Position numbers and translations under genes: made by a program. Positions 6,892 through 53,421 of a DNA stretch of 64,000 nt are shown piece after piece. Source of the stretch: Haliotis cracherodii (lineage: Eukaryota); the NCBI RefSeq assembly GCF_022045235.1, contig NW_027266308.1, forward strand, positions 58,590,001 to 58,654,000. Direction: 5' to 3'. How positions within the stretch are numbered: position 1 is the stretch's first letter; each line of letters starts with the position of its first letter. The notes beneath the pieces are model-generated. The model was not told the origin of the DNA and ran no database searches. It saw only the letters and a list, made by a program, of their open reading frames with translations.

Positions 6892-9800
6892 TTACGACGG
6901 TGACGTCACAGTGACGCCCTTTCCATCCAGCAACATCAGAACTCCCGCCACAATCTCCAAGACAAGAGCGACAATGGCGAACCCGAAACTGAAGCCGAAC
7001 TCTCCCTCGCGAATGATCACTCCGCTGATGTAGTTGAAGAAGCCATCGTCAAAGTTCGTTCCGAAGATTATAACGGCCACCAGGTAACAAGCAGCTGTTG
7101 GATGAAACAGAATAAAGAAATGGATAAAGGATTTGAACATAACGGTTTGCTTGCTGACGGTGCGACTCATAATTAAGCTCTCGCCACCTGTCACTCAAAC
7201 AACATGACCGACCAATCAGAAAGTCCTAAGTGATAAAAGAATCCGATAAATTTTGCCCGATAACCTGTTCGACTTTTATCAAAATGATAGATGTTTTTAA
7301 GCAATATTCGATACTGTCACCCAAACATCAGTATATCCGGAAATGTAACATAATTCATTATTAGAAGTATACAGAATAAAAAAAGCCCATACATGTTAAT
7401 AACAAATTCGTCCTGCTTGTTTGGGGAGAGGTTAAATCCGCTCTGACGCTAGGTAAAATGAACATTTAACGTCGAAGGAAAATAATTTGGGGGTCTTGAA
7501 AATGAAATGGCTTCAACATTTATTCTTTGGTTGTCCGCATTTTTATAACAATGTTTAATTTTTATTTCAAAATAGGAATAATGCAATCGAATTGTTTAAA
7601 AACATCTATCAATTAATTTTACATGTAACGCGCTTGTCCAAACTTGACTATACACACAGAAGGAATGGAGCAATAATAATCTTTATATCATTAGATCATA
7701 GATCTTGATTAAGTTTGATTGTGTTTGTTTATGTCCTAAAATGCACGTGCTAGCCATTCCGAAGCCGAACCGTCCTGTCTTTATTGAACTATCTTTATAA
7801 TGTAAAATTCCATACTGTTGTGGTATTAAAGTGATGATGGAAGGATATTTGTTTCAAGAAAAGTATGTATTTGAATAGCGTTTTCCCTGAAGCCCTCAAG
7901 CACGGGAATGGCGTTGAGAGACCAGGAATCATACTTAGTACGAATCTGGGATTCGAAATTAAAACCAGGAGATCCTTGGAAATGCCCAGGAACTTCATTC
8001 CTCAAAGCGAATTGCAACACATTTGACCGCTGATCCACACGTGCATCCTTCAGTAGGCATAACGGTATAATTGTAGACGACATATGGTATAAATTAAACA
8101 TAACGGTAAACGCTATTGAAGTAACCAGTGTCAGTGTGGACGTATTTACCAGTCACAAAGCAGCAGAGGGCGTTCCAGAAGCCGAGGTCACTGACACCCT
8201 TGCATACAGAGGAGAATATCTGGAGAGTCACAACAAGGAACGCCACGTTAATTCCTACAAAGCCGAACACAGAAAGGGCTTGCACAGTGGCGTACCAGTC
8301 TGAAATAGAGAAATACATCCTGTATTTAGTTTAGTGCTTGGACAAACCTGTCGAAAATATTAGCAAATGTATGTGGTTTACAAATGAAAACATACAATGA
8401 GGTTAGCATTTGGTGAATTGTATTCTCAAATTGCAGTGAGTAAAGTAATGGTTTTCTGCCAAAATGCTTTTGGGACAGAAGACCTCGAAGACGGGACAGT
8501 GAGCATAACATGACGCTAGGTTATAATTGTCGATACCAAAAATGTTTCAAGAAAGGGGCTTTACATACTGAATATGGGTTCATAAAAGTAATCTTCTCGG
8601 GAAAGATAATTCCGTAGTACCGAGTTGCAAGTACGTTGTTTTATATATTGCCCATAAGTTCAGAAAATATTGAACAATGGTTTCCTGATCACAAGGGTGA
8701 CGTAAGCGCAGTCAATCTATTGTTGGAGGGACGTCACATAAAACCGTTTATGACGTCATGAACAATATATGACGTCATCTGCAATTGTTTTGGACAGTGC
8801 GTTGACATGACTACTCCATGAAACGGGTCACGTCTCTAAAACCCCAAATAACGGAACAATTGACGTGAAGTACCCAATCATCATGGCAGATAATTGCACC
8901 GATATCCGTGCCCCTGTGGGTAAAAGAGGACAGTGAAGTATGAGAGTGGGTGATTTGACGTCGCTTCATAATTAGCGATGTTCCAAATGCCTTGGTCGCC
9001 GTGAATAGCTGTAAGAATGCTGATGCAGCGTTAAACACTAATCACTCACTCACTCACTAAATCTAAATGTCGTGAGAATGGGTTTCATATACATGTATTG
9101 CATCCTCTTGCATAACAGGCTAACCGAGGGAGCGGCGTTGTGCACCATCGTCCAAGAATAGACTTCTGTTTGGAATTAAATCCGGGTCTAAGATGAATGA
9201 AGCCTTCGGTCACAATCTCCCCGCCCCCTAACATGGAAACAATCCACATTTCGCATAACCGTGCCATGTCACATATATTTATATCTACTGGGTGGATCGG
9301 GATGGATATATGGTGATGTTCATATAATGATGTTTTCAATAGGTTATAAAAAAGTTGCCTTTTTCAATTACGGCTTTGATTTCTATTCCTTATCATCGAT
9401 CAAATGTATTGTTACTGCTAAAAAACTGTTACCGCTGACCTCAATGCGAACCCTTCGACCCTAAAAAACATGCTGATTTTGAAAAATGCTCTAGCTTTAT
9501 ATCCATTTGAAATGACAACGTAAGCTGTATCCCTATTAGCAAAACCATAAGGCTATTGACAGTCAGATTATATATCTTATACATATTTACTTTTTTCGAC
9601 CCTTAGTTTAACACATATTAAAAAATCCCTATCGACATACCAGTGAATGAGTGATTCTGGTTTTACGCCGCTTTTAGCAATATTCTAGCAATATCACGGC
9701 ACCAGAAATGGGCTCCACGAATTGTACCGATGTGGGGAACGAACCCGAGCCTTTGGCGTAACGAACGAACGCTTTAACCACTAGGCTAACCCATCGCCCC

Positions 9801-10050
9801 TATCGACATAGCAGAAAGACCTACCTAGTCTGGTTCCATCCAACTGACCACACGCCGAGGGCACTTCGGAGTTGCTGCAGATCCTCCACAAACCGTACCC
9901 AAGAAAAAAGTCTCCAACTGGAGCCGTGTATCTCTTCCCCCACTGTGGAATGGTGAAGGCGATGTAATTACACACCTGAGCCACAAGCAGTACCAGGAAA
10001 CACACCTTCATCAGCAGAGATGCTCCCATGAAGCTGTCCTTGATGCCCAT
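6892..10050 (-). CDS. Claudin/PMP22-superfamily tetraspan protein, paralogue 2 (~192 aa)
   Basis: Exons 10050-9825, 8299-8150, 7094-6892; GT-AG; open 579-nt frame; PQWG...GYGLWRIC-x8-C; ends VTSPS*. Confidence 0.9.
9643..9800 (-). mobile_element. SINE family A
   Basis: Reverse copy of family A, TSD TATCGACATA, about 24 bp from the exon-1 donor of paralogue 2. Confidence 0.85.
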
Positions 10051-12585: not shown

Positions 12586-15500
12586 TCAGGCGGGTGAACC
12601 TTCGACTTTTGTCTCGGCTTGAGTTGACAAAGGGGCTGTACTATTTCCTTTTTTCTTCTTTGATTTCTTTTTCGGTTTCTCATCCTCATTTATCAGCAGA
12701 GCTGGCACTTTGCACAGTTTGCCTCCTGTTAAGAGCATCAAGACTCCCAACACAATCTGCAGGATCATTGTGAAAAAGGCGAAGACGTAGGAATAACTCA
12801 GGTCTCCTTTTCTGGACTGGTTGCCTATGGTATACGTCAGCCTCTCGCCACTGCCGTACACAGCACCATAGATGATGAGACCGATAAAGTATATTATTCC
12901 TGTAACAAAATTAAAAAGTTTTATCTCAGAGTGAATTGAGTGAATGGACAAAGAACTAAACTCATTAATTGCATTACCAAGGTCATACATTTGGGCATTG
13001 TACCCCATCGTCGATACTTCACTCATTTTATGAGGGAGTGAGTTTGGTTTAACGCCGCTTTTAACAGTATTCCAGTTATATCGCGGCGTGTCAGCTTAAT
13101 GTGGGAGGAAAGCCGGAAATGATGCAGGTCTCAGACGTTTAACACTTTCGGTGAAACCCACCAGCACGGGTATGGTGCTGACAAACCTAGAAAAATAATC
13201 GGGTCGAACCGGGATTCGAACCCACAATCATTGGTTTCTGGCGTGCCCAAGGCACGCAACTCTGTACAGCGAATCGCGGCGCCTTAGACGACTGGGCCAC
13301 CCGTGCTCCCCTCATTTTATGAACCTGTACATTCCTCCATCACCCGATTTGCAGTGTAGTGGCTATTTTTAACCAATGACGAGAGAGAAAGCAGCCCCTG
13401 CTCACACCAATAAGCGCTCAGGTTACACCACACGAAAAGTCAATATTTCTAGAGCAAGTTTTGTAATAGCCTTGAGGCTATCTTCTTCTTACATTGCTTC
13501 AATATCAGACGACTAACGGGATCGGGTGGTCAGTCTCGCTGACTTGGTTCATGCATGTCATATCCCAATTGCGTGGATCTATGCTCATTATGTCAATCAC
13601 TGGATTGTCTGGTCCAGACTCGATTATTTACAGACGGCCGTCATATAGCTGGAGTATTGTTAGTGCGGCGTCAAACAGCAAACAAACAAACAAACAAACA
13701 AACAAACAATTGTAAGGTTCGTAAAAAGGTCGTGCACATAGCCGAGATCACTTCCGTGAGTTCTAAATGGCCACATTTCATAAGCTAACTTCAAATAGAC
13801 AAGCGTCAATACTGTACATCAAATCGTCCGTATGTATTCACGGGAGATGAATGCATGTGTAATATACAAATCTGTGAACCATTGACGTTGAGTGTAAGCG
13901 ATGTTGAAAAATCAAATCCAAGTCTTCGACGTGACGAGCACACGCTTTACCCACTAACCTCCCACCTCAAGGTTTGTGTTTCGATGGTTCAACAAATCGG
14001 TGCAACATTCAGTCAGCACTGATCAACATCTCATTTGTAAACATACACTACTACAAAGCAACATTTAAAAAAAAGAAGAAGATGTACCCTCACCTGTGAC
14101 GATGGCTTGGACGGCGTTCACCTCGTTGATGTCAGTGACCTTTTTACAGGATGACGTGAACATCTGTAGCATAGTAACAAGAAAGAGGATGTTGACCCCC
14201 ATGAACCCGATAGTAGCAAACGCCTGAACTGTGCCATAGTGGGCTGAAACATACATATTTAAATACATATGCATACATTTCATGTTGTGAGTGTAAATGT
14301 TAAACAAATTAGTGGACTGTGGATAAGTGTTTCGACTACAGTAAACTACGTTTATAACGAACACTCTTATAACGGACTGACGGATATAACGTACTATTTT
14401 TGAATTTGATATTCCAACACATGATCATAGCTTTCTGGCACGCCTAAGGGACGTAATTCTGCAGCGCAAGATAAGGCGCCTTAGACGTACATGCTTGTCC
14501 CCGCATAACGTAATTATTAACTGAGCGAAACCTTTTATATTTTGTAATGAAAGAACTGTTTTCAAAGGTTTAATCTAATGAGCAAGAGCAAGTATTTGTT
14601 CTTATAAGAGTGTGTGAGTGAGTGAGTTGGGTTTTACACCGCTTGTAACACTATTCCAGTTATATGACGGCGTGTCAGCTTAAAGTGGGAGGAAAGCCCG
14701 AACTGATGCAGGTCTCAGACGTTTAACACTTTCGGTGAAACCCACGAGCACGGGTATGGTGCTGACAAACCTAGAAACATAATCGGGGCGAACCGGGATT
14801 CAAACCCACAATCATTGGTTTCTGGCGTGCCCAAGGGACGCAACTCTGCATAGCGAATCGCGGCGCCTTAGACGCCTGGGCCATACGTGCCCCCTGTTCT
14901 TATAAGAGATGAAGGTAAACACTTGATAATTATTAATTTTCTCTTAGCCATACGTTTGTATCAAAAGTACGCTATCAAGTATAAGAAAGAAAAACGATCA
15001 GTGATATGATCTTTCGCCATGAATGACGAATATGAATCAAAATGGCCTGAACGACTACCCATGAATGCAATCTTACAAACGAACTTAAGAAAATGGCAGT
15101 CTTATGCATCATGCAATATGGTTGAGCGGTACTAAGACGTAATGTCAATGGACACCTAATGCATGAATTTCAAATGCAATGTTTCAGTTTTTCAAATGTG
15201 ACTTTTCCGTACAGATGTTTAATATTATTTCAGTCACTTGCTTGATAAGGGTACCACCATCTTTACCAAACATTACATTTAAGAAATGAAACCCATCATT
15301 CAACGCTGTCTTCATTCATCATCTTAAGTCTATGAAATCATTTTAAATAATACTTTACACATGGGCCCAATGCCCAATCATAAATCAAACAACGCCGAGA
15401 GGTTAAAAGTCTCAATTTGGATGACCCATGTTTTGTCAGTACTGTAGCTCCGCCTCCACACGACACCTGTCTCTTTCAACGTGATGTATTTTAATTGAAT

Positions 15501-16615
15501 ACCCTCCCACCAACGTCACTATAGCAGGCTGTGCACACATTAATCAAGTTGTCATTAAAGAGCTCATGCCACAGTACTGCATAGTCATGGTTATTCACAA
15601 AGAGGTAAATCTTCGGTAACAACAAAAGCCATTGACAATATGCATGTCGCCATAGGGAACGTAATGCATATGGTTGATTCCAGCATCTACGTGAATGGCA
15701 TCGTTACACCCTCGCCGTCTTACTTCCGTCTTTTCAACGACGCCATTGTTGAAGCTGTTATTTGCGTGCTTAATGATTTAGGAATAGAATACCAGAATAA
15801 AGCAATATGATCTCCAATTTACATGTAAATAGATCTTACCGGTACCGTTTTATTACATTTCAATGTCAATAATGTGTATGAGCACATGCATATATAATGC
15901 ATATCGATGATGAAAATTTATTTAAGATCGATGATTTTAGGGTCAAATTCTGATCAAATTAAAACGTTATCGAATTCGTATTAAATGGTTTATGACAAGT
16001 TGAGAGGGATATTACTCCAACGTGCAAATTTAGATTCAACCGAATGATCATGTAACTGACTAGTTGTACGTAAATCTGTGATATTCTAGTTACTATACTG
16101 TCCTTCGTCGACAGAATTTTATAAAGTTTAGATATATATTGTTAATGTCAAATTTTGTCTCGTCACGACATGGCTGAAATATTGCCGATGTGACGGTAAT
16201 CTTAACTCACTCACTCATGTAACTGATTTCGAGTGTACAAGATAATACTTGTTGGAAATTACTTATATTGGGTACAAGTTTGTTGTAGGATTGAATATAA
16301 CGAGTATGCACCTAGTAATTATTTTGAGACAACTTGGAAATGTGAATGTGCATACTGGGATCACTTACCCAGATTGGCGCCATCTAATGGAAAGCAATTT
16401 GGGATCGGATTGACTGCTGTTCCCACGTTTGAACAGCTTCTCCACAAGCCGTAGCCGATGTGGTCATCACCGTTCCCGGACAGTGTCGTGAAGCGTCGGG
16501 CCCAAGCAGGGGTGGTAAAAGACAACCAGTTAAAAAACTGAGTCACAAGAACCAGAATAAAGATGATTCGTTTCAGAAGGGAAGCCGCCTTCAAACTCTC
16601 CACTACACCTGCCAT
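12586..16615 (-). CDS. Claudin/PMP22-superfamily tetraspan protein, paralogue 3 (~236 aa, lysine-rich C-tail)
   Basis: Exons 16615-16369, 14243-14094, 12899-12586; open 711-nt frame; PAWA...GYGLWRSC-x12-C; tail EDEKPKKKSKKKKG...EGSPA*. Confidence 0.9.
13034..13310 (-). mobile_element. SINE family B, full length
   Basis: TSD CTCATTTTATGA at 13022-13033 and 13311-13322. Confidence 0.9.
13510..13710 (+). mobile_element. Retroposon family C, 5'-truncated
   Basis: GACTAACGGGATCGGGTGGTC...GCGGCGTCAAAC(AAAC)n. Confidence 0.82.
14611..14894 (-). mobile_element. SINE family B, full length
   Basis: TSD TGTTCTTATAAGAG on both sides. Confidence 0.9.
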
Positions 16616-21318: not shown

Positions 21319-22818
21319 CTATTTGGCGGCCACAGATCCACCTTTGAGGCCGATCACAAGCAGAACAACGCCGACAACGATCTCCAACACCATGGCGAAC
21401 ACAGCAAAGACGAATGAGTAGCCCAGGTCGCCATCCACGGCAATGACTGCACTGTGAAGTTTGTCTCCATTGCCGTATTCCGCACCGAATATAATGATGC
21501 CGATCAAGTAGAGAACACCTGGAAATTATATAGTTTAAACATATTTTATTCAATTTTACCTGAAAGGGATCGGTAAACAGGCCTTACTGTCTTATTCAAA
21601 TTACACTCCCTGTTACATAAATACATTTGTGTAGACATAAAAACTTCAAGGTTTTAAAAAATTTAAGCTATGGTATGAAACAATAACACGTTAGTTTAGG
21701 AGTCTAAACTAGAAACAGACATTATACTCATTTCAAATTAAGTGATGTGTACACGTGCCACCTAATTATCAGCAATTGTCAGTTAACCATTCTTATAGTT
21801 TTAAAATTATTATTAACATAAATATACCTGTTACAGTGTTCATACGACCGGGACGAATATATATATATTGAAACACAAACGTAACTTCAGTCTGAGTTTC
21901 CACATAATTAAGTCAATATGTTTTGGTACTAAATACAAATTGTTATAAGCTGACAAAAATGCAGCAATGCAATTTATTGATAAATATTACCAACGGTAAA
22001 AACATAAATGATATGGGAAAGAGGGAAACACAATTTTCTTCATGTTTCTTTTACTTCTTGTTCAGGTTAAACTGAACTGAATCAATAATGTTAGTGTGAG
22101 TTGTTTGACGCCATACCTGTAACGATAGCTTGGATGCCGTTGACTTTATCGATGTCAGAGACGTCGGCACACTTGCTTGTGAACATCTTGAGGATGATAA
22201 TGAGGCACATTGCGTTGAGTCCAAGAAATCCGATTGATACCAAAGCCTGAACAGCGCCATAATACACTGAAACCCAAACCATACACCCTTACTTACTGAT
22301 CTTCGGCGTGACAGGCGACACGACTTTATCATTAATCTGCCCAAAGGGGACAATGGTTTTTGAACATATTGAAGCATCTATGGGCTTGGTTTCACGATAC
22401 ATGTATCTTTTTTTCCCGGGTTTTACTATTATAGCATAGCTATTGTCATTGTCCGAACATCTCCCCCCCCCCCCCCACCCCCCATAAAGTACCCCATAAA
22501 TAAAAAAACCTCTAATCAAATATAATATATTTCTATAATAGAATGTTGTTTGATAAAAGGACAATATTTACCGAGATTTGTTCCGTCTATCTGGGTGCAT
22601 ACAGATACAATTCTACCGGAGCCGGTATCCGAGCCTGTTCCACATATTCTCCACAGCCCGAAGCCAATGAAAGTCTCCTTATTTGTATTTGTAAATAGAC
22701 GAGCCCATGCTGCAGTAGTAAAGGCTATCCAGTTACACATGTTCCCCAAAAGAGCAAGAACAAGAACAACGATGCCAATGGCACCGGCACCCTTCAGACT
22801 CTCAAACACTCCGGCCAT
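21319..22818 (-). CDS. Claudin/PMP22-superfamily tetraspan protein, paralogue 4 (~198 aa)
   Basis: Exons 22818-22572, 22266-22117, 21518-21319; open 597-nt frame; GFGLWRIC-x14-C; ends GGSVAAK*. Confidence 0.9.
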
Positions 22819-24009
22819 ATTATGTGTAAGGAGACGAAGGTTCTGCCGTTATAAGTTTACATGAAATGACAACCGACCAGTTCTTCGACTGTTTTTAAGT
22901 CTGTTGTCTAAGCAAAAATGTCTGTTGCTACAACATTGTAACCTGATTGGTCGATAACGAAACAAAAAATGATCTTGAACACAGCGACGCATACATAAAC
23001 CTTCAAGTTATTCGAGCATATTTGTCATCATGTGACTGACAATACATATTTCAAATGGAGATGTCTCTAAATCTTGTCTCAACCTGCCAACTTGTTTTCA
23101 TACTATGTGAATGGATTTATAAATAAACATTACAAAAAGATTAATAATGGTCTTTACGATCGCATTGATATTGATTTAAAAAAAGGTAAGGTGCAGTGAA
23201 ATGGGATTAAACGTCGCGTTCCCTATTATTGTACTTATATAGGAACATTCATGAAATGATCCCGTACACAGCAACGCATACATACATCTTCAAGATATTT
23301 AGGCGTTTATCTCCATGCTACCATGACCAAAAAAAACGCTTTGGTGTTAGCAAATATATTTAGAGAAGCGGCATGGTTTGAGTCCAAAGTTTTGAGTTGG
23401 TTAAATTACGGAATTACCGACAACAGCCTGTGAACAAAATATCGCGCTGTATATGCGCAAGCAGTTTGCCTATAGTACGACGTGCCAATGCATTATGTAA
23501 TACTTCACTCGAACATATACCAGGCATTGAAAGCATATGAGCACGCAAACTTGGTCAGCTAACATAGGCTACCCATAAAGATAGCTAAGCAAGCTTTGCA
23601 AAGCTTTCGTTCTACACCGCACGTCACCAGTATGACGTCATATCACTCACTGTGACGCAAGGGATATGACGTCACAGTCGTATATAGAAAAACGCCAAAT
23701 TCCATGCTCTCTGTAGTCCCAAATGTTTAAAACATATTCTCTTTGTAGATTTCTATTGTGTTTTTTGCACGAAATGTATCGCCTAACATCCTTTGAATAT
23801 TGTAGTAAGCACAACTTTGCAACCTGCAATAGTAGATATAAGTATCTAAATATACCTACGGACAATGACTGAAAAAAGTACTATTCTATGAATATAGGCT
23901 ACCGCGGTGATGCAGGCGTGAAACTAGCTGTTTCGACTACTGACGCATTTATAGTCCTAGCCCATTGAGATACCATACTATACATGAATACTACACTCAG
24001 ACAGCTTGG

Positions 24010-24760
24010 ATGTTTTCGAATAAATTATAGTGTCCCCGAAATTCTTGAAAAGGTTTAATTACTCTTCATATTATTGGAAAAGGAAATTGTAGACAGTACT
24101 AAAATCTCTCGAATATTGATGTATGGTTTTGAAGTGTGGGGTATTAAATATCATGCCCCATTTGAAAAGATACAAGTATCCTAATGTAAACTATTTTGGG
24201 GAGTGGGTAATGATTCAGCAATCTTCAGCAAAAAGATGTTCTGGGTGAAACTGATGGTCATTGTATGTTTATCAACACGCCAATAAGGGCAAAGAAGTAC
24301 TGGATTAAGCTTCTTCGATTGAATGCAAGTCGATACCCCCTCCAAAGTTGCGTTCTGCTTAAATTATAAGAGGATAGGCCATTGCAGGAAGATGACGTTT
24401 AACAGATATTTATTTCCAAACATAGTACCAAAGTTTGGAGGTTTCTACCTTTGTAGCGAATATATAATCTTTTCTGCAACCTGAGTTTTATATAACTGTA
24501 CTCAGAGATAAACGATTTGTTGGAGCAATGTGTAAACTTCGAAAGTCTCTAAACAACTTTCGAGTCAACATTATTTTGTGAAAAACCAACATTTAACACC
24601 GTGTACAGACTCTGCATGTGAAGACAGTGACCTTCATTTAGTAGTGGATGAATGCAATGCACTTTTTGTACGTAAGAAATAGACTCTGTTGAAAAATAGC
24701 TTGCTTGTCTCATTACAGAAATATCATAAAGTTAGTATCACGTTTGCAATTGTCTTTTCT
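24010..24760 (+). mobile_element. Decayed LINE ORF2 3' part, carried inside the duplicated unit
   Basis: ILMYGFEVWG...CKLF.GV...VLGE...KYWIKLL, then a degenerate C..C...VDE...LFV zinc-knuckle region; stops and frameshifts present. Confidence 0.75.
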
Positions 24761-25494
24761 TAAGTTCTATTAATGTTCTAAGTTGGATAGGTCTATATTT
24801 AGGTAACATATCCAAAATAGGATGGGTATGTGGCATGCTGGGCATGTGACTTTAATATATGATTCATCTTTCATCTGCAGTATGGGCAATGTGGTTGATC
24901 GACTAGTACATATGATACATATTATCAAACAGCTAAAACTGGCGAGCAATAAAACGCTACCAAACTGAAAGCTTGACACGTTGGGTGAAAACCCGAATAA
25001 TGTAAGAAAATGGTTGAGAATCAATCGCCAATCAATGTTTTGTTAGGTTATTAGTGCGCAAACATTCATTTGTATCTATGGCTCATACGACTACCGTATA
25101 CATGATAACAAAAACAAATCACATTATTCAGCACAATATTTGACAGCAAGCTGTGTTTTGAAATTACATCATTGTCTGTGATGTGGCAGTATGGATACTT
25201 TAGGTATTTGGTTGAGAATAACCATCTTGACAACAAGAAGTATTTATAGTTTATATACTTCCACATTGCACATTATTCATGACAGGAACACTTACATGGG
25301 AGACTAGACAACAATACATCTCAATCAAACGTTCACGCTATGGGACATAGTATACTCTGTGTTTACGTATACGTTACCAGTCGTGAAGGTGTTCGAGGTC
25401 GAAGAGAGAGAGTGTATTGTGTCTGCTATGTTATGGTTATTACAATCTCAGAGCATTGAAAGAGCACAACTGGGTTTATATCGCTTTTGTGTGG

Positions 25495-25745
25495 TGTTTG
25501 TTTGTTTATTGTGTAACGCCGCACTCAGCAATATTTCAGTAACATGACGGTGTTCTGTAAATAATCGAGTTTGGACCAGACAATCCAGTGATTAACATCA
25601 CGAGCATCCATCCACGCTATTGGGATACGATGACATGCATCAACCAAGTGTGCGAACCTGTCCACCCGATGCCGTTGGTCGCCTTTTATGGCATGATCGC
25701 CTTTTACGGCAAGCATGGTTTGCTAGAGACAAATTCTAACCCTCT
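25495..25745 (-). mobile_element. Retroposon family C
   Basis: Reverse-complement match to the family C body and tail. Confidence 0.8.
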
Positions 25746-25749
25746 TCGC

Positions 25750-25890
25750 GGTGTGGTGTGGTGTGGTGTGGTGTGGTGTGGTGTGTATGGTGTAGCGTAG
25801 GTGTAGCGTAGGTGTGGTGTGGTGTGGTGTGGTTTGGTTTGGTGTGGTGTGGTGTGGTGTGGTGTGGTGTGGTGTGGTGTGGTGTGGTAT
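25750..25890. repeat. (GTGTG)n pentanucleotide microsatellite
   Basis: Direct; homologous tracts at 29650-29975 (inverted) and 33877-34220. Confidence 0.9.
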
Positions 25891-26339
25891 AGTCATTTAG
25901 TGATATTGTTAATATTAACGTCTAAGGAATAGAAGCGACAAAACTGTTGTAAAATTGTAAAAAAACACTTTGATTCATTTCTTTAATTTTCCGTAAATAA
26001 ACCGTTTGCATAATACCCATCTTCATTGAAGTGAGACTTCTGGTGAAAAATAGTTTAAGCCTGGTTTGTATAGTTCCAGTCATAGTAGCTGATATCTCAT
26101 ACAAGACATTCGACAGGGATATTGTATATGACAAGCATTGTTCAAGGGGATGTAAGGAAATCGCCATCACAATGGTATTGTAAAGAAGGCAAGATAAGAA
26201 GTTCAAAGTGAAGCCACGTCACAGGATGGGAGTACTTCCTGCAGGGGAACTTGACTTGACAACATTGGTTGTGTCGACTTCATCCTTCCACGACACAACA
26301 TAACATGCTCCCATTCCCCTTGACTTTATATAGTGGTTA

Positions 26340-27724
26340 CTATTTGGCGGCCACAGATCCACCTTTGAGGCCGGTCACAAGCAGAACAACGCCGACAACG
26401 ATCTCCAACACCATGGCGAACACAGCCAAGATGAATGAGTAGCCCAGGTCGCCGTCCACGATAGTGGCACCGAGGGCAACACGTAGTTTGTCTCCATTGC
26501 CGTATTCCGCACCGAATATTATGATGCCGATCAAGTAAAGAACACCTGGAAATGAAATGGATCGGTAAACAGCCCTTACTGGCTTATTCAAATTTCTCTC
26601 GTTGTTACATAATTACATTTGTGTAGACATAAAAACTCCAAGGTTTTAAATAATTTAGGCTATGGTATGAAAGATAAATACGTTAGTGTAGGAGGCTTAA
26701 CTAGAAACATGCATTATACTCATTTCAAATATAGTGATGTCTACTCGTGTCACTTAAATATCGGCAATTGTCAGTTATCAAATCGTATTGTTTTAAAATT
26801 ATTATCAACAAAAACAGACCTGTGAAGTTACAGTGTTCATACGATGTTTCCACATAATTAGGCCAACGTTTAATCATAAGGTAACACAAAAAATGCATTA
26901 ATGCAAAATATTGATGAACATTGCAAGCATGAATGATATGGGAAAGAGGACAGCACAAATTTCTTCATGTATTGTTTACTTCTTGTTCAAGTCACACTAA
27001 ACTGAATCAATAATGTTAGTGTGAGTTGTTTGACGCCATACCTGTAACAATAGCTTGAATGCCGTTAACTTTATCGATGTCGGAGACGTCGGCACACTTG
27101 CTTGTGAATATCTTGAGGATGATGATGAGGCACATTGCGTTGAGTCCCAGAAATCCAATTGATACCAAAGCCTGAACAGCGCCATAATACGCTGACACCC
27201 AAACCATACACCCTTACTTACTGATCTTCGGCATGAGAGGCGAAAGACGTTATCATTAATGTGTCCAAAGAGCCAATGGTTTTTGAATATATTGAAGCAG
27301 TTATGGTCTTGGTGCATCTTTGTTTCCCGGGTTTTACTATTATAGCATAGCTATTGTCATTGTCCGAACATATTCCCCCATAAATCACCCCATAAATAGA
27401 AAACACTCTAATCTAATAATATATATAATATATATCTATAATATAATGTTGTTTAATAAAAGGATAATATACTTTACCGAGATTTGTCCCGTCAATCTGG
27501 GTGCATACAGATACAACTTTACCGAAGCCGGTATCCGTGCCTGTTCCACATATTCTCCACAGCCCGTTGCCAGTGAAAGTCTCCTTATTTGTATTTGTAA
27601 ATTGACGAGCCCATGCTGCAGTAGTAAAGGCTATCCAGTTACACATGTTCCCTAAAAGAGCAAGAACAAGAACAACGATGCCAATGGCACCGGCACCCTT
27701 CAGACTCTCAAACACTCCTGCCAT
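26340..27724 (-). CDS. Claudin/PMP22-superfamily tetraspan protein, paralogue 5 (~200 aa)
   Basis: Exons 27724-27478, 27191-27042, 26545-26340; open 603-nt frame; GNGLWRIC-x14-C; near-identical to paralogues 4 and 6. Confidence 0.88.
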
Positions 27725-27929
27725 GTTATATATAACTAGACGATGGTTCTGTCGTTATAAGTTGACATGAAAATACAACCGACCAGTTCTTCGACTGTTT
27801 TAATTCTGTTTCCTAAGCAATTTCTCACCTTGTCATTTGAATGGCTGTTGCTACAACAGTGTAACCAAGCCCATAGCTGCTTCAATATGATCAACAACCA
27901 TTAGCTCCTTTGGGCTGATAAAAGGTGAA

Positions 27930-29543
27930 ATTGTTCGCCTGTCACGTTGACGAACAGTAAATAAGAGTTTATGGTTTGGGTTTCAGCGTAGTATGGCGCT
28001 GTTCAGGCTTTGATATATACATATATTCTTGATTCCTCAATAGAGAGAGAGAGAGATATTTGGAGATTTTACGAGCGCTTCAGCCTCTGGCTATTTCGCA
28101 CTCGGGGCTGACGGTTCTTATAAAATATGGAATAGTGGGAATAAATGTAAACGTCTAGCCCAAAAAACTGTAAGTGAAGGGGGATAAAGTAATGAGAAGA
28201 GCGGTTGGGGTTTTAGTGGCCGTAGAGAGCCGAAGAGGTATAAAAGTTCTACGTTAGCCAGGTTTATTTGGGGTATGATAACTAGGATAGATAGAGTGAT
28301 AGAAGTAATCAGTTAAGCTGATGTATGACTACTACTAATAAACGTATTAATTTATTAAGGGAAAAGATAATGGATAATGTAGGTAACCTAAGTTAAAAAC
28401 AGGGGCCTAGCGCGGGGAGAGAGTTACAGACATATAAATACAGTATTTGTAAGTGTACGAAAAGGGGCATTTTTATGTTAAGTTTATCCCTACTCACATG
28501 TCAGAACATATAATGTCTCTTCACAATGTCTATATATTTCTTCACCTGGAAGATACCTTTGACTGCAGCTTTTGTAAAGTTCTCTACAGTCTCTGGATTG
28601 TCTGGGATGGGGGGCGTACATGCCAGGAGACAGCAAACTAACTCAATTCCATGCTTTTTATGGAGAGCCACGCATACTTCCACTGGACAATTGTCCACAA
28701 TGCTACACCACCAATTGTCTCTGAGATGCTCTGTCTCCGACATCAATAAAGTCAACGACATCCAAAGAACTCACACTGACATAATTGAATCAGATCAGTT
28801 TGACCGGAACAAGGAGTAAAAGCTCCATGAATAAAATAGTGTTTCCCTCTTTCTTAAAACATTCATGTTCTGCCAGTTTGTTATGTGTTTCAAGCTGTTG
28901 CATTAATGCATTTTTTGTCACACCTTATGAAAACTTGTATTAAGCACCCTAAAAAGTTGACAATGTGGAAATCCAGACTGAAGTTACGTTTGTTTTTCAA
29001 CATATATTCGACCCTATCGTATGAACACTGTTACTTTCAGGTGTGTTTTTGTTGATAATAACTTTAATGCAATACGATTGGGTATTTGACATTTCTGATA
29101 TTCAGGCGACACGAGTATCCATCACTTTATTTGAAAAGAGTATAATGCCTGATTCTAGTTTAGTCTCCAACACTAATATATTCACGTGTCTTACCATAGC
29201 CTAAGTTATTTAAAAACTTGAAGTTTTTATATCTACACAAATGAATTTATGTAACAGTGAGCGTAATTTGAATAAGCCAGTAAGGTCTGTTTACCGATCC
29301 CTTTCAAGTAAAATGTTGAATTAGATATGTTTAAACTATATCATTTCCAGGTGTTTTTTACTTGGTGGGCATCATTATATTCGGTGCAGAATAAGGTAAT
29401 GGAGACAAACTACGTACTCCCTTCAGTATCACTGTCGTGCTACTCATTCGTCTTGGCTGTGTTCGCCATGTTGCTTGGGATTTTTTGTCGGCGTTGTTCT
29501 GCTTTTGGCTTGCCTAAGGGGCGGATCTGTGGCCGCCAAATAG
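27930..29543 (+). pseudogene. Inverted claudin-like pseudogene (end of intron 1, exon 2, intron 2, exon 3; no exon 1)
   Basis: Acceptor TTTCAG then exon 2 from 27987 with in-frame TAG (27989-27991), an insertion at ~28040-28730, then VSDINKVNDIQ. Exon 3 from 29351 reads GVFYLVGIIIFGAE* (TAA 29392-29394), has frameshifts, and ends GGSVAAK* at 29543. Confidence 0.88.
28040..28730 (-). mobile_element. Probable 5'-truncated LINE 3' end inserted in pseudogene exon 2
   Basis: Interrupts exon-2 homology. Minus strand shows an ORF end (LRDNWWCSIV...AAVKGIFQ...HYMF*), a UTR-like stretch and a (CT)n tail. Confidence 0.5.
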
Positions 29544-29649
29544 TAACCACTGTATGCAGTCAGGGGGAATGGGAGAATAGTTTTACAGTTTTACAAATAG
29601 TAGCTTCTATTCCTTTGACGTTAGTATCAAGATCAATTGATAAATGACC

Positions 29650-29975
29650 ACACCACAGAAAAACACCACACCACACTACACCACACTACACCACACCACA
29701 CCACGCCATGACACACCACACCACACCACACCACACCACACCACACCACACCACACCACACCACACCGCGCCACACCANNNNNNNNNNNNNNNNNNNNNN
29801 NNNNNNNNNNNNNNNNNNNNNNNNNNNNNNNNNNNNNNNNNNNNNNNNNNNNNNNNNNNNNNNNNNNNNNNNNNNNNNNNNNNNNNNNNNNNNNNNNNNN
29901 NNNNNNNNNNNNNNNNNNNNNNNNNNNNNNNNNNNNNNCACCACGCCATGCCACACAAAACCACACCACACCACA
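29650..29975. repeat. (CACAC)n microsatellite (inverted copy of the spacer repeat), contains a gap
   Basis: Direct. Confidence 0.85.
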
Positions 29976-30779
29976 CCTGGTTACATTTGGTCTTCAGCAA
30001 CCCATGCTTGCCGTAAAAGGCGACTATGATTGTCGTAAAAAGGAGACAAACGGCATTGGTGAGTGCGGCGTTAAACAACAAACAAACAAACAAACAAACA
30101 AACACCACACGCGACATTAAACCCAGTTGTGCTCTTTCAATGTTCTGAGATCCTAATAACCATAACATATATAGTAGACGCAATACACTCTCTCGCGACC
30201 TCGTATACCTTCACAACTGGTGAACGCTTGATTGACACATATTGTTGTCTTGTCTCCCATGTTAGTGTTCCTGTCATGAATAATGTGCAATGTGGAAGTA
30301 TATAAAATATAAATACTTCTTGTTGTCAAGATGGCTATTCTCAACCAAATACCTATGGTATTCACACTGCAACATCACAGACAATGATGTTATTTCGGAA
30401 ACACAGCTTGCAGTCAAATATTGTGCTGAATAATATAATGTGATTTGTTATAGTTATCATGTATACGGTAATTGTATGAGCCATAGATACAAATGAATGT
30501 TTGCGCACTAATGACTTAACAAACAAACATTGATTGGCGATTGATTCTCAACCATTTTCTTACACTGTTCGGGGTTTGGACCCAACGTGTCAAGCTGTCA
30601 GTTTGGGAACCGTTCATTTGCTCGTCAGTTTTAGCTGTTGGATAACATGTATCATATGTACTAGTCGATGAACTTTATATTTCAGGGTTCAGGCCACATT
30701 GCCCATACTGCAGATGAAAGATGAATCATATATTAAAGTCACATGCCCAGCGTGCCACATACCCATCCTATTTTGGATA

Positions 30780-31240
30780 TGTTACCTAAATATAGACCCA
30801 TCCAACTTAGAACATTAATAGAACTTAAGAAAAGACAATTGCAAACGTAATACTAACTTTATGATATTTCTGTAATGAGACAAGCACACAGGCATACAGG
30901 CCACACTGCACATAGTGCAGATGAAAGAAGAATCATATTAAAGTCACATGCCCAGCGTGTTACACTCTCGCCATCTCATTTTAAATATATTACATAAATT
31001 TAGACCTATAAAACTTACAACATTAATAGCGCTTACATACAAAAAGGACAACGCATTCATCCTCTACTAAACGAAGGTTACTGTCTTTACATTCAGAATT
31101 TCTATAAGGTATATTTAATGTATATTTTTCACATAATAATGTCGAAAGTTGTTCAGAGTGTTTCGAAGTTTACACATTGCTCTAACAAATCGTTTGTCTC
31201 TGAGTACAGTTATATAAAACTCAGGTTGCAGAAAAGATTA
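30780..31240 (-). mobile_element. Inverted copy of the decayed spacer LINE fragment
   Basis: Reverse complement of ~24460-24860 / 32440-32860. Confidence 0.65.
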
Positions 31241-32009
31241 TAACAAAGAATGATCTCATACATAGCGAATCATACATAAACCGTCAAGTTATTCTAGTAT
31301 ATTTGTCATCATGTTACTGACAACACATGTTTCACATAACGAGTGGAATGGAATGTTTCTATTCCAGCATTTTGATATGTTTCCACATACCAACATCGTG
31401 TACAATGTATATGTGATTGTTTAAAACGGAAGTGTAATTGATTACGTCAAGAAACATCTGCAATACTGCTTTGTAGAGCCTTCACATGCCTGCTGCATTG
31501 AACTGGACACAAAGAGATGTCTCTAAATCTTGTCACAAGCTAACTTATTTTCATACTGTGTGAATGGATTTATGAATAAACATAACAAATAGATTAGAAA
31601 ATGGTCTTTACGATCGCATTGATATTGATTTCAAATAAAGGTAAGGTCATTAGTCCGGAGTACTACAAGCANNNNNNNNNNNNNNNNNNNNNNNNNNNNN
31701 NNNNNNNNNNNNNNNNNNNNNNNNNNNNNNNNNNNNNNNNNNNNNNNNNNNNNNNNNNNNNNNNNNNNNNNNNNNNNNNNNNNNNNNNNNNNNNNNNNNN
31801 NNNNNNNNNNNNNNNNNNNNNNNNNNNNNNNNNNNNNNNNNNNNNNNNNNNNNNNNNNNNNNNNNNNNNNNNNNNNNNNNNNNNNNNNNNNNNNNNNNNN
31901 NNNNNNNNNNNNNNNNNNNNNNNNNNNNNNNNNNTAACTACGGATGTATAGAGCTTGCCCATTGAGATACCATACCGCAGTATTACATAAATACTAAACT
32001 CAGACAGCT

Positions 32010-32760
32010 GGAATTTCATCGAAAAAATAAAGTGTCCCCGAAAATTCTTGAAGCTTCATTTTATTTGGAAAAAGAAGTACTTGACGGCCTCAAATATTAA
32101 CTTGTTGCATGATTTTGCAGCTGCAGCTGCAAACATATCTGGTCTCAAATTTATGTTTTTAAATACGCCAATAAGGGTACTGAAGTACTGGATTAAGCTT
32201 TTGCGAGTGAATGCAAGTCGATACCCCTTCCCAAGTTATGTTCTGTTTAAATTATTAGAGGAGAATGTTAAAGTGAATAGGGCATCGTATGTTAGCAAAT
32301 GTTATTTAATCATGGTTTTGCGTGTGTGTGGTTGATGTTGGGGATACGAAGAGGTGTGTCTGCATTCAAAAGACGTTAAACAGATACTTTTGTTTTGAGG
32401 TTTCTCTCTTTTTAGTGCATTATGTTCATATAAAATATCTTCTTTAACCTGTGTTTTATATAACTGTACTGAGAGACAAACGATTTGATAGAGCAATGTG
32501 CAAACTTCGAAAGTCTCTAAACAACTGTCGAGTAAACATTATTTGCGAAAAGTCAGCCTTAACAATACCTTATACAGATTCTGTATGTAAAGACAGTGAC
32601 CTTCATTTAGTGGAGGATGAATGCAATGTACTTTTTGTATGTAAGAATTATAGTCTCTATCGAAATAGTTGTCTTATCTCATTCCAGAAATATGATAAAG
32701 GTAGAATTACGTTTGCAAATAAGTATAACTTAAGTGTATTAGTGTTCTATGTTTGATAGC
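32010..32760 (+). mobile_element. Decayed LINE ORF2 3' part (duplicate of 24010-24760)
   Basis: NTPIRVLKYWIKLLRVNASRYP and VCKDSDLHLVEDECNVLFVCKNYSLYR (LINE C-terminal zinc-knuckle-like). Confidence 0.75.
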
Positions 32761-33449
32761 TCCATATTTATGTAAAATATTTAAAATGAGATGGGTAGGG
32801 CGTAACACGCTTGGCATGTGACTTTCATATGATTCTTCTTTCATCTGCATTATGTGCAGTGTGGCCTGAGTTAAGAAATATAAAGTTGATTGACGAGTAC
32901 ATATGATACCTAGTATCCAACAGCTAAAACTGACGAGCAAATGAACGGTTACCAAGCTGAAATTTTGACACGTTGGTCCAAACCCGGAATAGTGTAAGAA
33001 AATGGTAGAGAATCAATCGCCAATCAATGTTTGTTAAGTCATTAGTGCGCAAACATTCATTTGTATCTATGGCTCAAACGATTACCGTATACATGATAAC
33101 TATAACAAATCACATTATATTATTCAGCACAATATTTGACTGCAAGCTGTGTTTTCGAAATTACATCATTGTCTGTGATGTTGCAGTGTGAATACCATAG
33201 GTATTTGGTTGAGAATAGCCGGCTTGACAACAAGAAGTATTTATATTTTATATACTTCCACAGGACACATTATTCATGACAGGAACACTAACATGGGAGA
33301 CTAGACAACAATACATCTCAATCAAGCGTTCACCAGTTGTGAAGGTATACGAGATCGCGAGAGAGTGTATTGTGTCTTTTATGTTATGGTTATTACAATC
33401 TCAGAACATGGAAAGAGCACAACTGGGTTTAATGTCGCTTTTGTATGAT

Positions 33450-33875
33450 GTTTGTTTGTTTGTTGTTTAACGCCGCACCCAATCCAGTGATTAACATCAT
33501 GAGCATCAATCCATTGGGATAAGATGGCATGCACAACCAAGTGAGCGAACTTGTCCACCAGATGCCGTTTGTCTCCTCTCACGACAAGCATAGTCCCTTT
33601 TATGGCAAGCAATTCTAACCAAGATCTTCACGGGTCAGTGTGGTGTGGTGTTACTATGTTAGGGTTATTACAAACCTAGAACATTGAAAGAGCACAAATG
33701 GGTTTAATGTCGCGTGTGGTGTTTGTTTGTTTGTTGTTTAACGCCGCACCACGCAAATGAGTTACGATGACATGCATCAACCAAGTAGGCTAGACTGACC
33801 ACCCAATGTCGTTTGTCTCTTCTTACGACAATCATAGTCGCCTTTTACGGCAAGCATGGGTTGCTGAAGACCAAA
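33450..33875 (-). mobile_element. Two partial retroposon family C copies (local tandem duplication)
   Basis: Family C sequence at ~33450-33635 and ~33720-33875, each preceded by the same GAAAGAGCACAA...GGGTTTAATGTCGC flank. Confidence 0.7.
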
Positions 33876-33876
33876 T

Positions 33877-34220
33877 GTGGTGTGGTGTGGTGTGGTGTGG
33901 TGTGGTGTGGCGTGGCGTGGTGTGGTGTGGTTTCGCGTGGTGTGGTGTGGTGTGGTGTGGTGTGGTGTGGTGTGGCGTGGCGTGGTGTGGTGTGGTTTCG
34001 CGTGGTGTGGTGTGGTGTGGTGTGGTATGGTGTGGTGTGGTGTGGTTTCGAGTGGTGTGGTGTGGTTTCGCGTGGTGTTGTCTTGGGTGGTGTGGTGTGG
34101 TGTGGTGTGGTGTGGTGTGGTGTGGCATAGCGTGGTGTGGTGTGGTTTCGCGTGGTGTGGTGTGGTTTCGCTTGGCGTGGTGTGGCGTGGTGTGGTGTGG
34201 TGTGGTGTGGTGTAGTGTGG
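33877..34220. repeat. (GTGTG)n microsatellite with GTTTCGC interruptions
   Basis: Direct. Confidence 0.9.
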
Positions 34221-34666
34221 TCATTTATGGATATTGTTAATATTAACGTCTAAGTAATAGAAACGACAAAACTCATTGTGAAAATGTAAAAACACTTTGA
34301 TTCATTTCTTTTATTTTCCGACGGTAAATAGTTTGCATAGTACCCATCTTCATTGAAGTGAGACGTCTGGTGAAAAATAGTTTAAGCCTGGTTTGTATAG
34401 TTCCAGTCATGGTAGCTGACATCTCATTCAAGACATTCGGCAGGGATATTGTATATGACAAGCATTGTTCAAGGGGATGTAAGGAAATCACCATCACAAT
34501 GGTATTGTAAAGAAGGCAAGATAAGAAGTTCAAAGTGAAGCCTTGTCACAGGGTTGGAGTACTTCCTGCAGGGAAACTTGACTTGACAACATCGGTTGTG
34601 TCGACTTCATCCTTCCACGATACTGCAGAATATGCTTCCATTCCCCTTGACTTTATATAGTGGTTA

Positions 34667-36387
34667 CTATTTGGCGGCCACAGATCCACCTTTGAGGCTG
34701 GTCACAAGCAGAACAACGCCGACAACGATCTCAAGCAACATGGCGAACACAGCCAAGACGAATGAGTAGCCCAGGTCGCCGTCCACGATAGTGGTACCGA
34801 CTACGGTACGAAGTTTGTCTCCATTGCCGTATTCCGCACCAAATATAATGATGCCGATCAAGTAAAGAACACCTGGAAATGATACCGTTTAAACATATTT
34901 ATTTCAACTTTACTTGAAAGGGATAGGTAAACAGGCCTTACTGGCTTATTCAAATTACGCTCCTTGTTGAATAATTACATTTGTTTAGACATAAAAGCGT
35001 CGAGGTTATAATAATTTAGGCTATGGTATGAAAGGTGATATCGTTAGTGTAGTAGTCTTAACTAGAAACAGGCATTATACTCATATCAAATAATGTGAGG
35101 TGAAATGTGGTTTAACGTCGCGTCCAAGATTATTGCACTTATATAGCGACGTACATGTACGTGTGTGTGTTTGTGTGACTGCTTGTACTAGTCCGGACTG
35201 ATGCCGATTTATAGTGCTAGCTCACTGAGATACCATGCCGCAGTTTAACATGAATACCCCACTCAGACACAGTATACTGACTCCGAGCCGACCATTCCTT
35301 GTTTTAGCCCCTTAATGCCGAGCGCCAGACAGGGTAACAACAAATACCATCTTTTAACGTCTTTTGGTATGACGCGGCAAGGGATCGAACCCCGTACCTT
35401 CCGCTCTCCGGGCGGACGCTCTACCACCATACCACGGAGGCGGTACCATATCAAATAAAGTGATGTGAACACGTGTCACCTAGTTATCAGCAATTGTCAA
35501 TTAACTATTCGAACTGTTTTTAAATTATTATTAAAAAAAAAGTTGTTATAATCTAACACAAAAATGCATTGGTACAATATATTAATAAACATTATAAATG
35601 GTAAAAAACATGAATCATATAAGAAAAAGGGAAGCACGATTTTCTTCATGTATTGTTTACTTCTTGTTCAAGTCAAACTGAACTGAATCAATAATGTTAG
35701 TGTGAGTTGTTTGACGCCATACCTGTAACGATAGCTTGGATGCCGTTGACTTTATCGATGTCAGAGACGTCGGCACACTTGCTTGTGAACATCTTGAGGA
35801 TGATGATGAGGCACATTGCGTTGAGTCCCAGAAATCCAATTGATACCAAAGCCTGAACAGCGCCATAATACGCTGAAACCCAAACCATAAACTCTTACCT
35901 ACTGATCTTCAGCGTGACAGGCGACCGAACTTATCATTAATCTGCCCAAAGGAGCCAATTTTGTTTGAATATATTGAAGCAGCTATGGTCTTGGCGCATC
36001 TTTGTTTCCCGGGTTTTACTATTAGCATAGCTATTGTCATTGTCCGAACATTTCCCCCCATAAATAAAAAAAACTCTAATCAAATATAATATCTATATCT
36101 ATAATAGAATGTTGTTTGATAAAAGGATAATATACTTTACCGAGATTGGTTCCGTCTATCTGGGTGCATACAGATACAACTTTACCGAAGCCGGTATCCG
36201 TGCCTGTTCCACATATTCTCCACAGCCCGTAGCCAGTGAAAGTCTCCTTATTTGTATTTGTAAACTCACGAGCCCATGCTGCAGTAGGAAAGGCTATCCA
36301 GTTACACATGTTCCCTAAAAGAGCAAGAATAAGAACAACGATGCCAATGGCACCGGCACCCTTCAGACTATCAAACACTCCCGCCAT
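34667..36387 (-). CDS. Claudin/PMP22-superfamily tetraspan protein, paralogue 6 (~200 aa)
   Basis: Exons 36387-36141, 35872-35723, 34872-34667; open 603-nt frame; GYGLWRIC-x14-C. Confidence 0.9.
35094..35446 (-). mobile_element. SINE family D (tRNA head + Meta/MESC-like central domain), full length, in intron 2 of paralogue 6
   Basis: Head with GGTTCGATCCC, then GTCATACCAAAAGACGTTAAAAGATGGTATTTGTTG...GGCGCTCGGCATTAAG; TSD CATATCAAATAA at 35082-35093 and 35447-35458. Confidence 0.88.
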
Positions 36388-36959
36388 GTTATGTATTACT
36401 CGACGAAGCTTCTGTTGTTATAATTTGACATGAAATGACAACCGACCAGTTCGTCGACTGTTTTAAGTCTGTTGTCTGAGCAAACAAATGTATTTCTTCC
36501 CTTGTCATTTGCATGGCTGTTGCTACAACTTTGTAACCATCATGGAATTCGTAACCTGATTGGTCGACAACGCAACAAAAAATGATCTCATACACAGCGA
36601 CGCATACACAAACCTTTAAGTTATTCGAGTATATTCGTAATTACTTATTGTCACGAGACGGACCGTGCATTTTTCAAATCTTACGTATATCCAAAGAAGT
36701 ATCTGAAAATTAATTAAATGAAATGTTTTAATATCACAAAATCGTGCATACGCGATTGTTTAAAACTACTGTTTTGTGGAACCTTAAGATGTGTGTTTAA
36801 ATGAAAATGGACATTGGTTCCCGCCCCGTGTTTTAAAACTCTATGATCGTATTAATATTGATTTCAAATAAGGTGGGGTTTGGTGAATGGAATTTCAATT
36901 CATCTTTCTTCACGTAATCGGTAACATTTGCCTTTTAAACAATCGCGTATACACGATTC

Positions 36960-53412: not shown

Positions 53413-53421
53413 TATATAAAA
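53413..53421 (+). promoter_or_regulatory. Candidate TATA box of dioxygenase copy 1 (also at 61119-61127 in copy 2)
   Basis: TATATAAAA about 330 bp upstream of the ATG, retained in both duplicates; no transcript data. Confidence 0.35.

What the first reader, a model, noticed from the sequence alone, without database searches (positions are those of the whole stretch)
21319..36387. Recent triplet (paralogues 4/5/6): amino-acid changes pile up in the extracellular loops
Introns and flanks are highly similar and exon 2 differs at only ~2 residues. In contrast, one loop-1 site has three states (AWAR-L/Q/E), so does the residue before GLW (F/N/Y), and the loop-2 tip differs in every copy (HSAVIAV / RVALGATIV / RTVVGTTIV; RTPFSITV in the pseudogene). 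This pattern suggests diversifying selection on an exposed surface, as in a host-pathogen or self/non-self interface (inference).
Basis: partly seen in the sequence, partly recalled or inferred. Interest (0 to 1): 0.7.

Follow-up and report, generated by a model that had tools for sequence, protein, structure and literature searches.

The report
Abalone claudin-like triplet with fast loops
Three neighbouring abalone genes for claudin-like membrane proteins differ mostly in their predicted outside loops, but those loops change no faster than the genes' introns, so this is likely ordinary loose constraint, with only a weak hint of selection at one short loop tip.

Summary
The three genes are real: intact three-exon PMP22/claudin-superfamily (PF00822) paralogues in a six-gene abalone array, with an inverted pseudogene. 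They are not alleles: introns differ by 12-14%, and H. rufescens has three matching proteins. But loop omega is not above 1 (p=0.72-0.89), loop dN (0.05-0.10) is below intron divergence (0.13-0.16), the variable sites are those variable in 43 distant homologues, and three three-state sites arise under neutrality with P=0.10-0.57. A residual signal remains: site models are borderline (p=0.008-0.36 by model, alignment, calibration), and the eight-codon loop-2 tip carries 14 changes at codon positions 1-2 against 3 at position 3 (p about 0.004 against homogeneous neutrality, but no hotter than the hottest intron patches). Two species-shared residues hint at gene conversion. Verdict: mostly relaxed constraint; local adaptive divergence about 0.3; pathogen arms race about 0.1.

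The parts
21319..22818 (-). g4: intact PF00822 gene, exons 22572-22818, 22117-22266, 21319-21518; 198 aa
   Evidence: equals P0002; PF00822 49.8 bits, cut-off 26.7
26340..27724 (-). g5: intact gene, exons 27478-27724, 27042-27191, 26340-26545; 200 aa
   Evidence: equals P0004; intron-2 splice joint in contigs of 3 of 4 runs laid
34667..36387 (-). g6: intact gene, exons 36141-36387, 35723-35872, 34667-34872; 200 aa; about 330-nt repeat insertion in intron 2
   Evidence: (equals P0006)
27877..29543 (+). Inverted pseudogene: split exon-2 remnants (about 27877-28016 and 28733-28765), intron 2, exon 3 from 29350 with an in-frame stop, a 14-nt deletion and a further frameshift; no exon 1 found
26460..26483 (-). 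Loop-2 tip of g5 (codons 154-161); counterparts at 21439-21456 (g4, two codons shorter), 34787-34810 (g6), 29413-29436 (pseudogene, + strand)
   Evidence: pLDDT below 50 at residues 156-158
27602..27604 (-). Codon 41 of g5 (Q); L in g4 at 22696-22698, E in g6 at 36265-36267; predicted strand 39-42
27566..27568 (-). Codon 53 of g5 (N), directly before GLW; F in g4 at 22660-22662, Y in g6 at 36229-36231; predicted strand 50-53
12586..16615 (-). g3: older paralogue, 47-49% identical to g4-g6, lysine-rich longer tail
6892..10050 (-). g2: older paralogue, 40-41% identical to g4-g6
1555..5703 (-). g1: older paralogue, 41-43% identical to g4-g6

Best explanation
These are three intact tandem copies of a claudin/PMP22-superfamily gene whose predicted membrane core is held by purifying selection while the predicted outer loops change at about the neutral rate, most likely because those loop positions are loosely constrained in the whole family. 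Shown: gene structure, family, omega about 0.24 in the core and about 1 in the loops, intron divergence above loop dN. Inferred: the triplication is older than the split from H. rufescens, occasional gene conversion homogenised parts of the coding sequence and so lowers dS a little, and the proteins work like other four-pass members of the fold, as surface proteins making cis/trans contacts through the beta-sheet and loop 2 (junction, adhesion or channel-partner role; untested). A few sites (41, 53, tip 154-161) may carry an adaptive component, but the data do not require one.
For: Loop omega 0.89-1.12, 95% range about 0.55-2.0, omega=1 not rejected; intron-calibrated 0.54 and 0.70-1.15. Loop pN never exceeds the intron rate in any of 3 pairs (p=0.84-1.0). 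The 25 variable columns fall on columns poorly conserved in 43 distant homologues (0.25 vs 0.46, p=2e-5); loop sites chosen a priori as 'free' give omega 1.0-1.44, p=0.28-0.98. Three three-state sites expected 1.1-3.0 under neutral loops, P(>=3)=0.10-0.57. Variable stretches 61-70 and 151-160 are the low-confidence loops of the model; PMC6028499 (passages) calls the claudin beta1-beta2 segment highly variable among claudins. Intron windows of 24 nt reach 16-22 changes against 17 in the tip. Residues 27 and 73 group by species across all three copies, the conversion hint; dS 0.09-0.12 is below intron d 0.13-0.16, though not significantly (p=0.05-0.31).
Against: M8a vs M8 p=0.008-0.044 and M1a vs M2a p=0.028-0.13 with free branch lengths, sites 41 and 155 at posterior above 0.9 in most fits. 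Tip codons 154-161 with the pseudogene show 7/7/3 changes at codon positions 1/2/3 and more amino-acid states than omega=1 gives (p=0.004 intron-2 calibrated, 0.029 without the pseudogene). A g5-type contig of run X16 differs from g5 at 5 places in exon 3, all in loop 2, 4 non-synonymous. Whole-loop omega near 1 despite invariant W, G, W, C, C residues leaves room for some sites above 1. N53 of g5 is a polar residue at a column hydrophobic in 39 of 43 distant homologues and is kept in H. rufescens. The in-window conversion test is weak (longest run p=0.025-0.03 for one of three pairs, uncorrected).
Confidence: 0.55

Rival explanations
1. After duplication a few exposed sites (41, 53, the loop-2 tip) were driven apart by positive selection, giving each copy its own binding or permeability specificity, then largely kept; conversion homogenised the core but not these sites.
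For: Borderline site models; tip excess at codon positions 1-2; copy-specific states Q41/N53 (g5), E41 (g6) and the short g4 tip are shared with H. rufescens; site 41 spans L/Q/E/K, a charge series; loop-1 charge sets selectivity in claudins (PMC3879130, passages).
Against: Signal falls to p=0.055-0.36 with intron calibration and to p=0.20 without the tip; the position-3 deficit alone has p=0.13; the window was chosen after looking; net loop charges differ little between copies; shared states are also expected from plain orthology.
Confidence: 0.28
2. The loops are a pathogen, toxin or self/non-self interface under continuing diversifying selection.
For: The tip keeps changing between species in each copy: 10 loop-2 replacements over three orthologue pairs, further states in runs X7, X13, X14, X16. 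Site 53 is at the motif position of claudin-1 residue 48 (directly before GLW), one of two residues that decide hepatitis C virus entry (PMC10373534, passages). A SNP between two oyster PMP22 genes had the largest frequency shift after herpesvirus mortality (PMC9437489, one passage; orthology to these genes untested).
Against: No ligand, tissue or polymorphism data. The orthologue loop-2 count gives omega>=2.1 only if neutral divergence is 0.035, and 0.8-1.0 at 0.07-0.09, the range listed for non-reproductive nuclear loci in another abalone pair (PMC2704960, table passage). Sites 41 and 53 are static between species in g5 and g6. No mention of claudin or PMP22 in the black-abalone disease-selection paper's text or its 2 readable supplements. 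The receptor analogies are to distant vertebrate proteins.
Confidence: 0.12
3. The tip is a local mutational hot patch or an older, conversion-resistant island next to indels, so its excess is not due to selection of any kind.
For: Indels in g4 and in the pseudogene lie in or beside the tip; pS in loop 2 is 0.17-0.26 against 0.08-0.11 elsewhere; intron patches are as hot.
Against: Third positions in the tip change at about the neutral rate (3 in 8 sites on a tree of length about 0.4), first and second positions at about twice that; allowing double-nucleotide changes does not remove the site-model signal (p=0.048). This overlaps with the best explanation and is scored as the pure form.
Confidence: 0.04
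4. The three copies are uncollapsed alleles or an assembly artefact.
For: Assembly gaps or masked stretches lie between g5 and g6.
Against: Intron divergence 12-14% against about 1.2% heterozygosity reported for black abalone (PMC13229213, passage); three counterparts in H. rufescens; a contig of run X7 matches g5 intron 2 with 17 differences and 6 gaps over 481 bases; three copies cannot be alleles of one diploid locus.
Confidence: 0.01

Closest known systems
PMP22/EMP/MP20/claudin superfamily (Pfam PF00822, PF13903)
   Same: Above gathering score; W...GLW..C...C motif; four helices with a five-strand extracellular sheet; loops are the variable part.
   Different: Mollusc-specific branch (closest non-abalone hits 34-44% in limpets and bivalves); 14 residues between the cysteines; the W after loop 1 seen in most homologues is Y in g4-g6; function unknown.
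Vertebrate classic claudins (claudin-3, -4, -9, -15, -18, -19)
   Same: Same fold (Foldseek TM-score 0.56-0.69); site 53 is at the motif position of claudin-1 residue 48.
   Different: 14-19% identity; tail ends VAAK with no evident PDZ ligand; tight-junction strand formation untested, and molluscs have septate rather than tight junctions (recalled).
TARP/CACNG and LHFPL4 (GARLH4) channel auxiliary subunits
   Same: Best profile hits (E 4e-14 for TARP gamma-2) and best fold hits (LHFPL4, TM-score 0.71); some mussel homologues carry automatic CACNG-like names.
   Different: About 14-24% identity, no clear lead over claudins, only a 7-10 residue tail; no channel partner shown.
Abalone gamete-recognition proteins lysin and VERL
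   Same: Same genus; the model case of adaptive surface divergence and concerted evolution.
   Different: Lysin shows whole-gene dN/dS about 3 and significant McDonald-Kreitman tests (PMC2704960, passages); here whole-gene omega is about 0.5 and loop omega about 1.

Membership tests
PF00822 PMP22/claudin superfamily | Whole-protein score above the Pfam gathering cut-off | tested here: met
   P0002 (g4) 49.8 bits vs 26.7; P0001 and P0003 also pass. Full-length g5 and g6 proteins were not scanned separately; they are 90-94% identical.
PF00822 PMP22/claudin superfamily | Loop-1 motif W-x(>8)-GLW-xx-C-x(8-10)-C (PMC3879130) | tested here: met
   W38, G54-L55-W56, C59, C74 in all three; cysteine spacing is 14, longer than the quoted 8-10.
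PF00822 PMP22/claudin superfamily | Four membrane helices and extracellular beta-sheet | tested here: met
   Model of P0004, mean pLDDT 84.7: H4-34, H83-111, H119-148, H168-193; strands 39-42, 50-53, 57-60, 74-76, 162-166; fold hits. Predicted, not solved.
Classic (tight-junction) claudins | C-terminal PDZ-binding motif | tested here: not met
   All six abalone proteins end VAAK; judged by eye against simple PDZ class rules.
Classic (tight-junction) claudins | Forms junctional strands and a paracellular barrier or pore | not testable with these tools
   Needs localisation and expression in cells.
TARP/CACNG auxiliary subunits | Closer to TARPs than to other members of the fold; binds an ion channel | tested here: inconclusive
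   Profile hits favour TARPs (4e-14 vs 2e-10 for claudin-18); fold hits mix LHFPL4, TARPs and claudins; binding untested.
Surface genes under diversifying selection | Loop dN/dS significantly above 1 or above the intron rate | tested here: not met
Surface genes under diversifying selection | A class of sites with omega>1 (M2a, M8) | tested here: inconclusive
   p=0.008-0.36 over models, three alignments and two calibrations, on three sequences.
Surface genes under diversifying selection | Excess loop polymorphism or copy-number variation within the species | not tested
   No same-species run was laid; the one answered lay call went to four other-organism runs.
Surface genes under diversifying selection | A foreign or allo-specific ligand | not testable with these tools
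   None known or found in the literature searches.

The most novel reading that the evidence does not exclude
A mollusc claudin-like triplet in which an eight-residue loop-2 tip and two sheet positions (one at the motif position of a viral-entry determinant of claudin-1) evolve adaptively and resist gene conversion, marking them as a recognition surface for a pathogen, toxin or partner cell in abalone.
Probability: 0.2. Interest if true: 0.65.

Novelty: new member of a known kind. Interest (0 to 1): 0.3.

Why it matters
As it stands it is an undescribed but ordinary tandem expansion of a known tetraspan family. If the local signal at the loop-2 tip held up, it would give a small, cleanly mapped candidate recognition surface in a disease-hit, farmed genus and one of few cases of adaptive evolution in an invertebrate claudin-like gene (my searches, listed none). 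The three copies with 1:1 counterparts across species make the test cheap.

Tried and rejected
Pfam on single exons gave nothing above cut-off; full-length database proteins were needed. Single-sequence search of solved structures gave only E>=0.24. No RNA holder was listed on record for the stretch; three runs guessed to be RNA show the splice joint, so expression in the window's own species was not examined. One search covers only exons 2-3 and intron 2 of g5 and shows 40 of 110 difference rows, so loop 1 has no cross-species DNA and counts for X13 and X14 are incomplete (14 of 16 differences seen each). The in-window runs test for conversion was weak. The localpair intron alignment probably over-aligns unrelated stretches and inflates the hot-patch control; the genafpair version gives 0 of the four-lineage windows at 17 or more (maximum 16) and 3-4% of three-lineage windows at the tip's level; both are reported. 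The pseudogene tip is not evidence of selection by itself, since part of its branch was neutral. Earlier scan notes: nothing by place, sequence or words. Supplements of the abalone copy-number paper PMC9936805 could not be read and may bear on copy number. No complex prediction was run: no partner is claimed. PMC5737536 and PMC13616518 (passages) gave general cautions on paralogues, alignment and conversion in tandem arrays, but no passage stating that conversion causes false positives in site models; that point is recalled.
Full report
What is there. The window holds six minus-strand, three-exon genes of one family and an inverted, broken fourth copy of the youngest group. A search of the own genome with exon 1 gave 6 matches of 9 candidates, all in the window; exon 3 gave 8 of 10, seven in the window and one distant 37% match elsewhere on the contig. 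The spliced products of g4, g5 and g6 equal P0002, P0004 and P0006, which NCBI labels uncharacterized Haliotis cracherodii proteins. P0002 passes the PF00822 and PF13903 cut-offs. An AlphaFold model of g5 on a 49-row alignment (pLDDT 84.7) has four helices and a five-strand outer sheet and matches LHFPL4, TARPs and claudins about equally. I set loop 1 as residues 35-84 and loop 2 as 146-167 from hydropathy and family layout before seeing the model, which agrees within a few residues.

The observation. Every quoted residue is present. Of 200 columns 25 vary: 16 of 72 in loops and 9 of 128 elsewhere (p=0.002). A three-sequence codon model of my own gives omega 0.89-1.12 in loops and 0.24 elsewhere (p<=0.0013 in three alignments of the g4 gap). 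The contrast comes mainly from g4; g5 against g6 shows none (p=0.27).

Not alleles, and not very recent. Introns differ at 75-88 of 619 gap-free columns per pair, ten times the heterozygosity of about 1.2% reported for black abalone (PMC13229213, passages). H. rufescens has three counterparts; 10 copy-specific states are shared across the two species (three depend on the g4 gap placement) against 2 columns, 27 and 73, that group by species. A contig of run X7 follows g5 intron 2 with 17 differences and 6 gaps over 481 bases. So the triplication predates these splits, and the two species-grouped columns likely reflect gene conversion. Contigs of 3 of the 4 runs laid (guessed RNA, other organisms) skip exactly the 496-base intron 2, which supports the gene model.

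Is it selection? For the loops as a whole, no. Omega=1 is not rejected (p=0.72-0.89; range about 0.55-2.0); with branch lengths fixed from introns, loop 1 is 0.54 and loop 2 is 0.70-1.15. Loop dN (0.045-0.103) lies below intron divergence (0.13-0.16) in 3 of 3 pairs. The variable columns are those poorly conserved in 43 distant homologues (p=2e-5), and loop sites picked on that outside criterion give omega 1.0-1.44, never significantly above 1. The three three-state sites (41, 53, 155) arise with P=0.10-0.57 under neutral loops.

What speaks for selection. Site models are borderline: M1a vs M2a p=0.054, 0.028 and 0.13 for the three alignments, 0.048 with double mutations, 0.20 without the tip; M7 vs M8 p=0.026-0.13 and M8a vs M8 p=0.008-0.044, weakening to 0.11-0.30 and 0.055-0.15 under intron calibration. 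Codons 154-161, with the pseudogene as a fourth lineage, carry 7, 7 and 3 changes at codon positions 1, 2 and 3 and exceed a scan-corrected omega=1 simulation within loop 2 (p=0.004; 0.029 for three lineages); this is not corrected for choosing the loop and the window width afterwards. Against it, 24-nt intron windows reach 16-22 changes against 17 in the tip, and the position-3 deficit has p=0.13. Across species, the three orthologue pairs have 25 loop and 17 non-loop replacements (p=0.0008), but loop-2 omega is 2.1 or 0.8 depending on a neutral distance I could not measure. One complete exon-3 contig (X16) differs from g5 at five places, all in loop 2, four of them replacements.

How it likely works. 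The proteins are predicted four-pass surface proteins. In claudins loop 1 sets charge selectivity, both loops mediate contacts, and the loops are targets of viruses (PMC3879130 and PMC6028499, passages). Site 53 sits where claudin-1 residue 48 sits, directly before GLW, as read from a primer in PMC10373534 (passages); site 41 is three residues after the conserved W where claudin-1 residue 32 is two after, so that match is looser. Sites 41, 51 and 53 lie on the first two predicted strands and may share a face (inferred from alternation; side chains not inspected). These analogies make a recognition role plausible but test nothing. The tail ends VAAK without an evident PDZ ligand, so I file the genes under the superfamily, not under classic claudins or TARPs. 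I put relaxed constraint with some conversion at 0.55, one-off adaptive divergence between copies at 0.28, a continuing pathogen or self/non-self race at 0.12.

Novelty. Searches for claudin with Haliotis (20 of 69 listed), claudin with positive selection and mollusc or abalone PMP22/claudin listed nothing on these genes; I saw listings and abstract starts only for these. The nearest item is one passage on a SNP between two oyster PMP22 genes after herpesvirus mortality (PMC9437489). The black-abalone disease-selection paper does not mention claudin or PMP22 in its text or two readable supplements, which may not hold its full gene lists. The library lacks most subscription papers. Earlier scan notes held nothing. 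Verdict: new members of a known family, real loop contrast, selection unproven; interest 0.3.

Noticed in passing
window 22572-22818 (g4 exon 1): g4 carries a run of private loop-1 residues (I51, S63, I70, V83; also H154, I190) where the H. rufescens counterpart P0003 has the g5/g6 state: either a burst on the g4 branch or conversion of P0003. P0003 also lacks four residues between the cysteines.
   Followed up: partly
window 26040-26250 and counterparts behind g4 and g6: The 3' flank is more alike among the copies (4.5-7%) than the introns, with about 200 nt nearly identical: a constrained 3' UTR or a conversion tract.
   Followed up: no
window 26290-26335: At 26331 all four other-organism runs carry the g4-type base while g5 and g6 share another, a further hint of g5-g6 conversion in this lineage.
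   Followed up: partly
window 27049-27109 (g5 exon 2 and start of intron 2): Seven consecutive variable sites are private to g5 while g4 equals g6, after four private to g4: a possible conversion tract (p=0.025-0.03 uncorrected).
   Followed up: partly
P0005 residues 113-114; runs X14, X16 at 27099-27101: A three-base change gives KQ for SK in the inner loop of g5-type copies in other organisms.
   Followed up: no
P0003 loop 2: The H. rufescens g4 counterpart has an N-T-S glycosylation sequon in the loop-2 tip that the window's copies lack (seen by eye).
   Followed up: no
window 27860-31240: An inverted duplication between g5 and g6 carries the pseudogene and the downstream spacer sequence of the repeat unit.
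   Followed up: partly
window 12586-12899: g3 has a longer tail with a lysine run (KPKKKSKKKK), unlike the other five.
   Followed up: no
window 1-713, 36956-39457, 41955-43555, 53231-55808 with 60938-63488: 88-nt tandem arrays at 1-713 and 41955-43555, a roughly 31-nt array at 36956-39457, a 2.6-kb direct duplication at 88% identity, and several dispersed 150-290 nt repeats.
   Followed up: no
G000:C45:33576180-33576359 (+): A distant exon-3-like match (37%) about 25 Mb away on the same contig, probably another family member.
   Followed up: no
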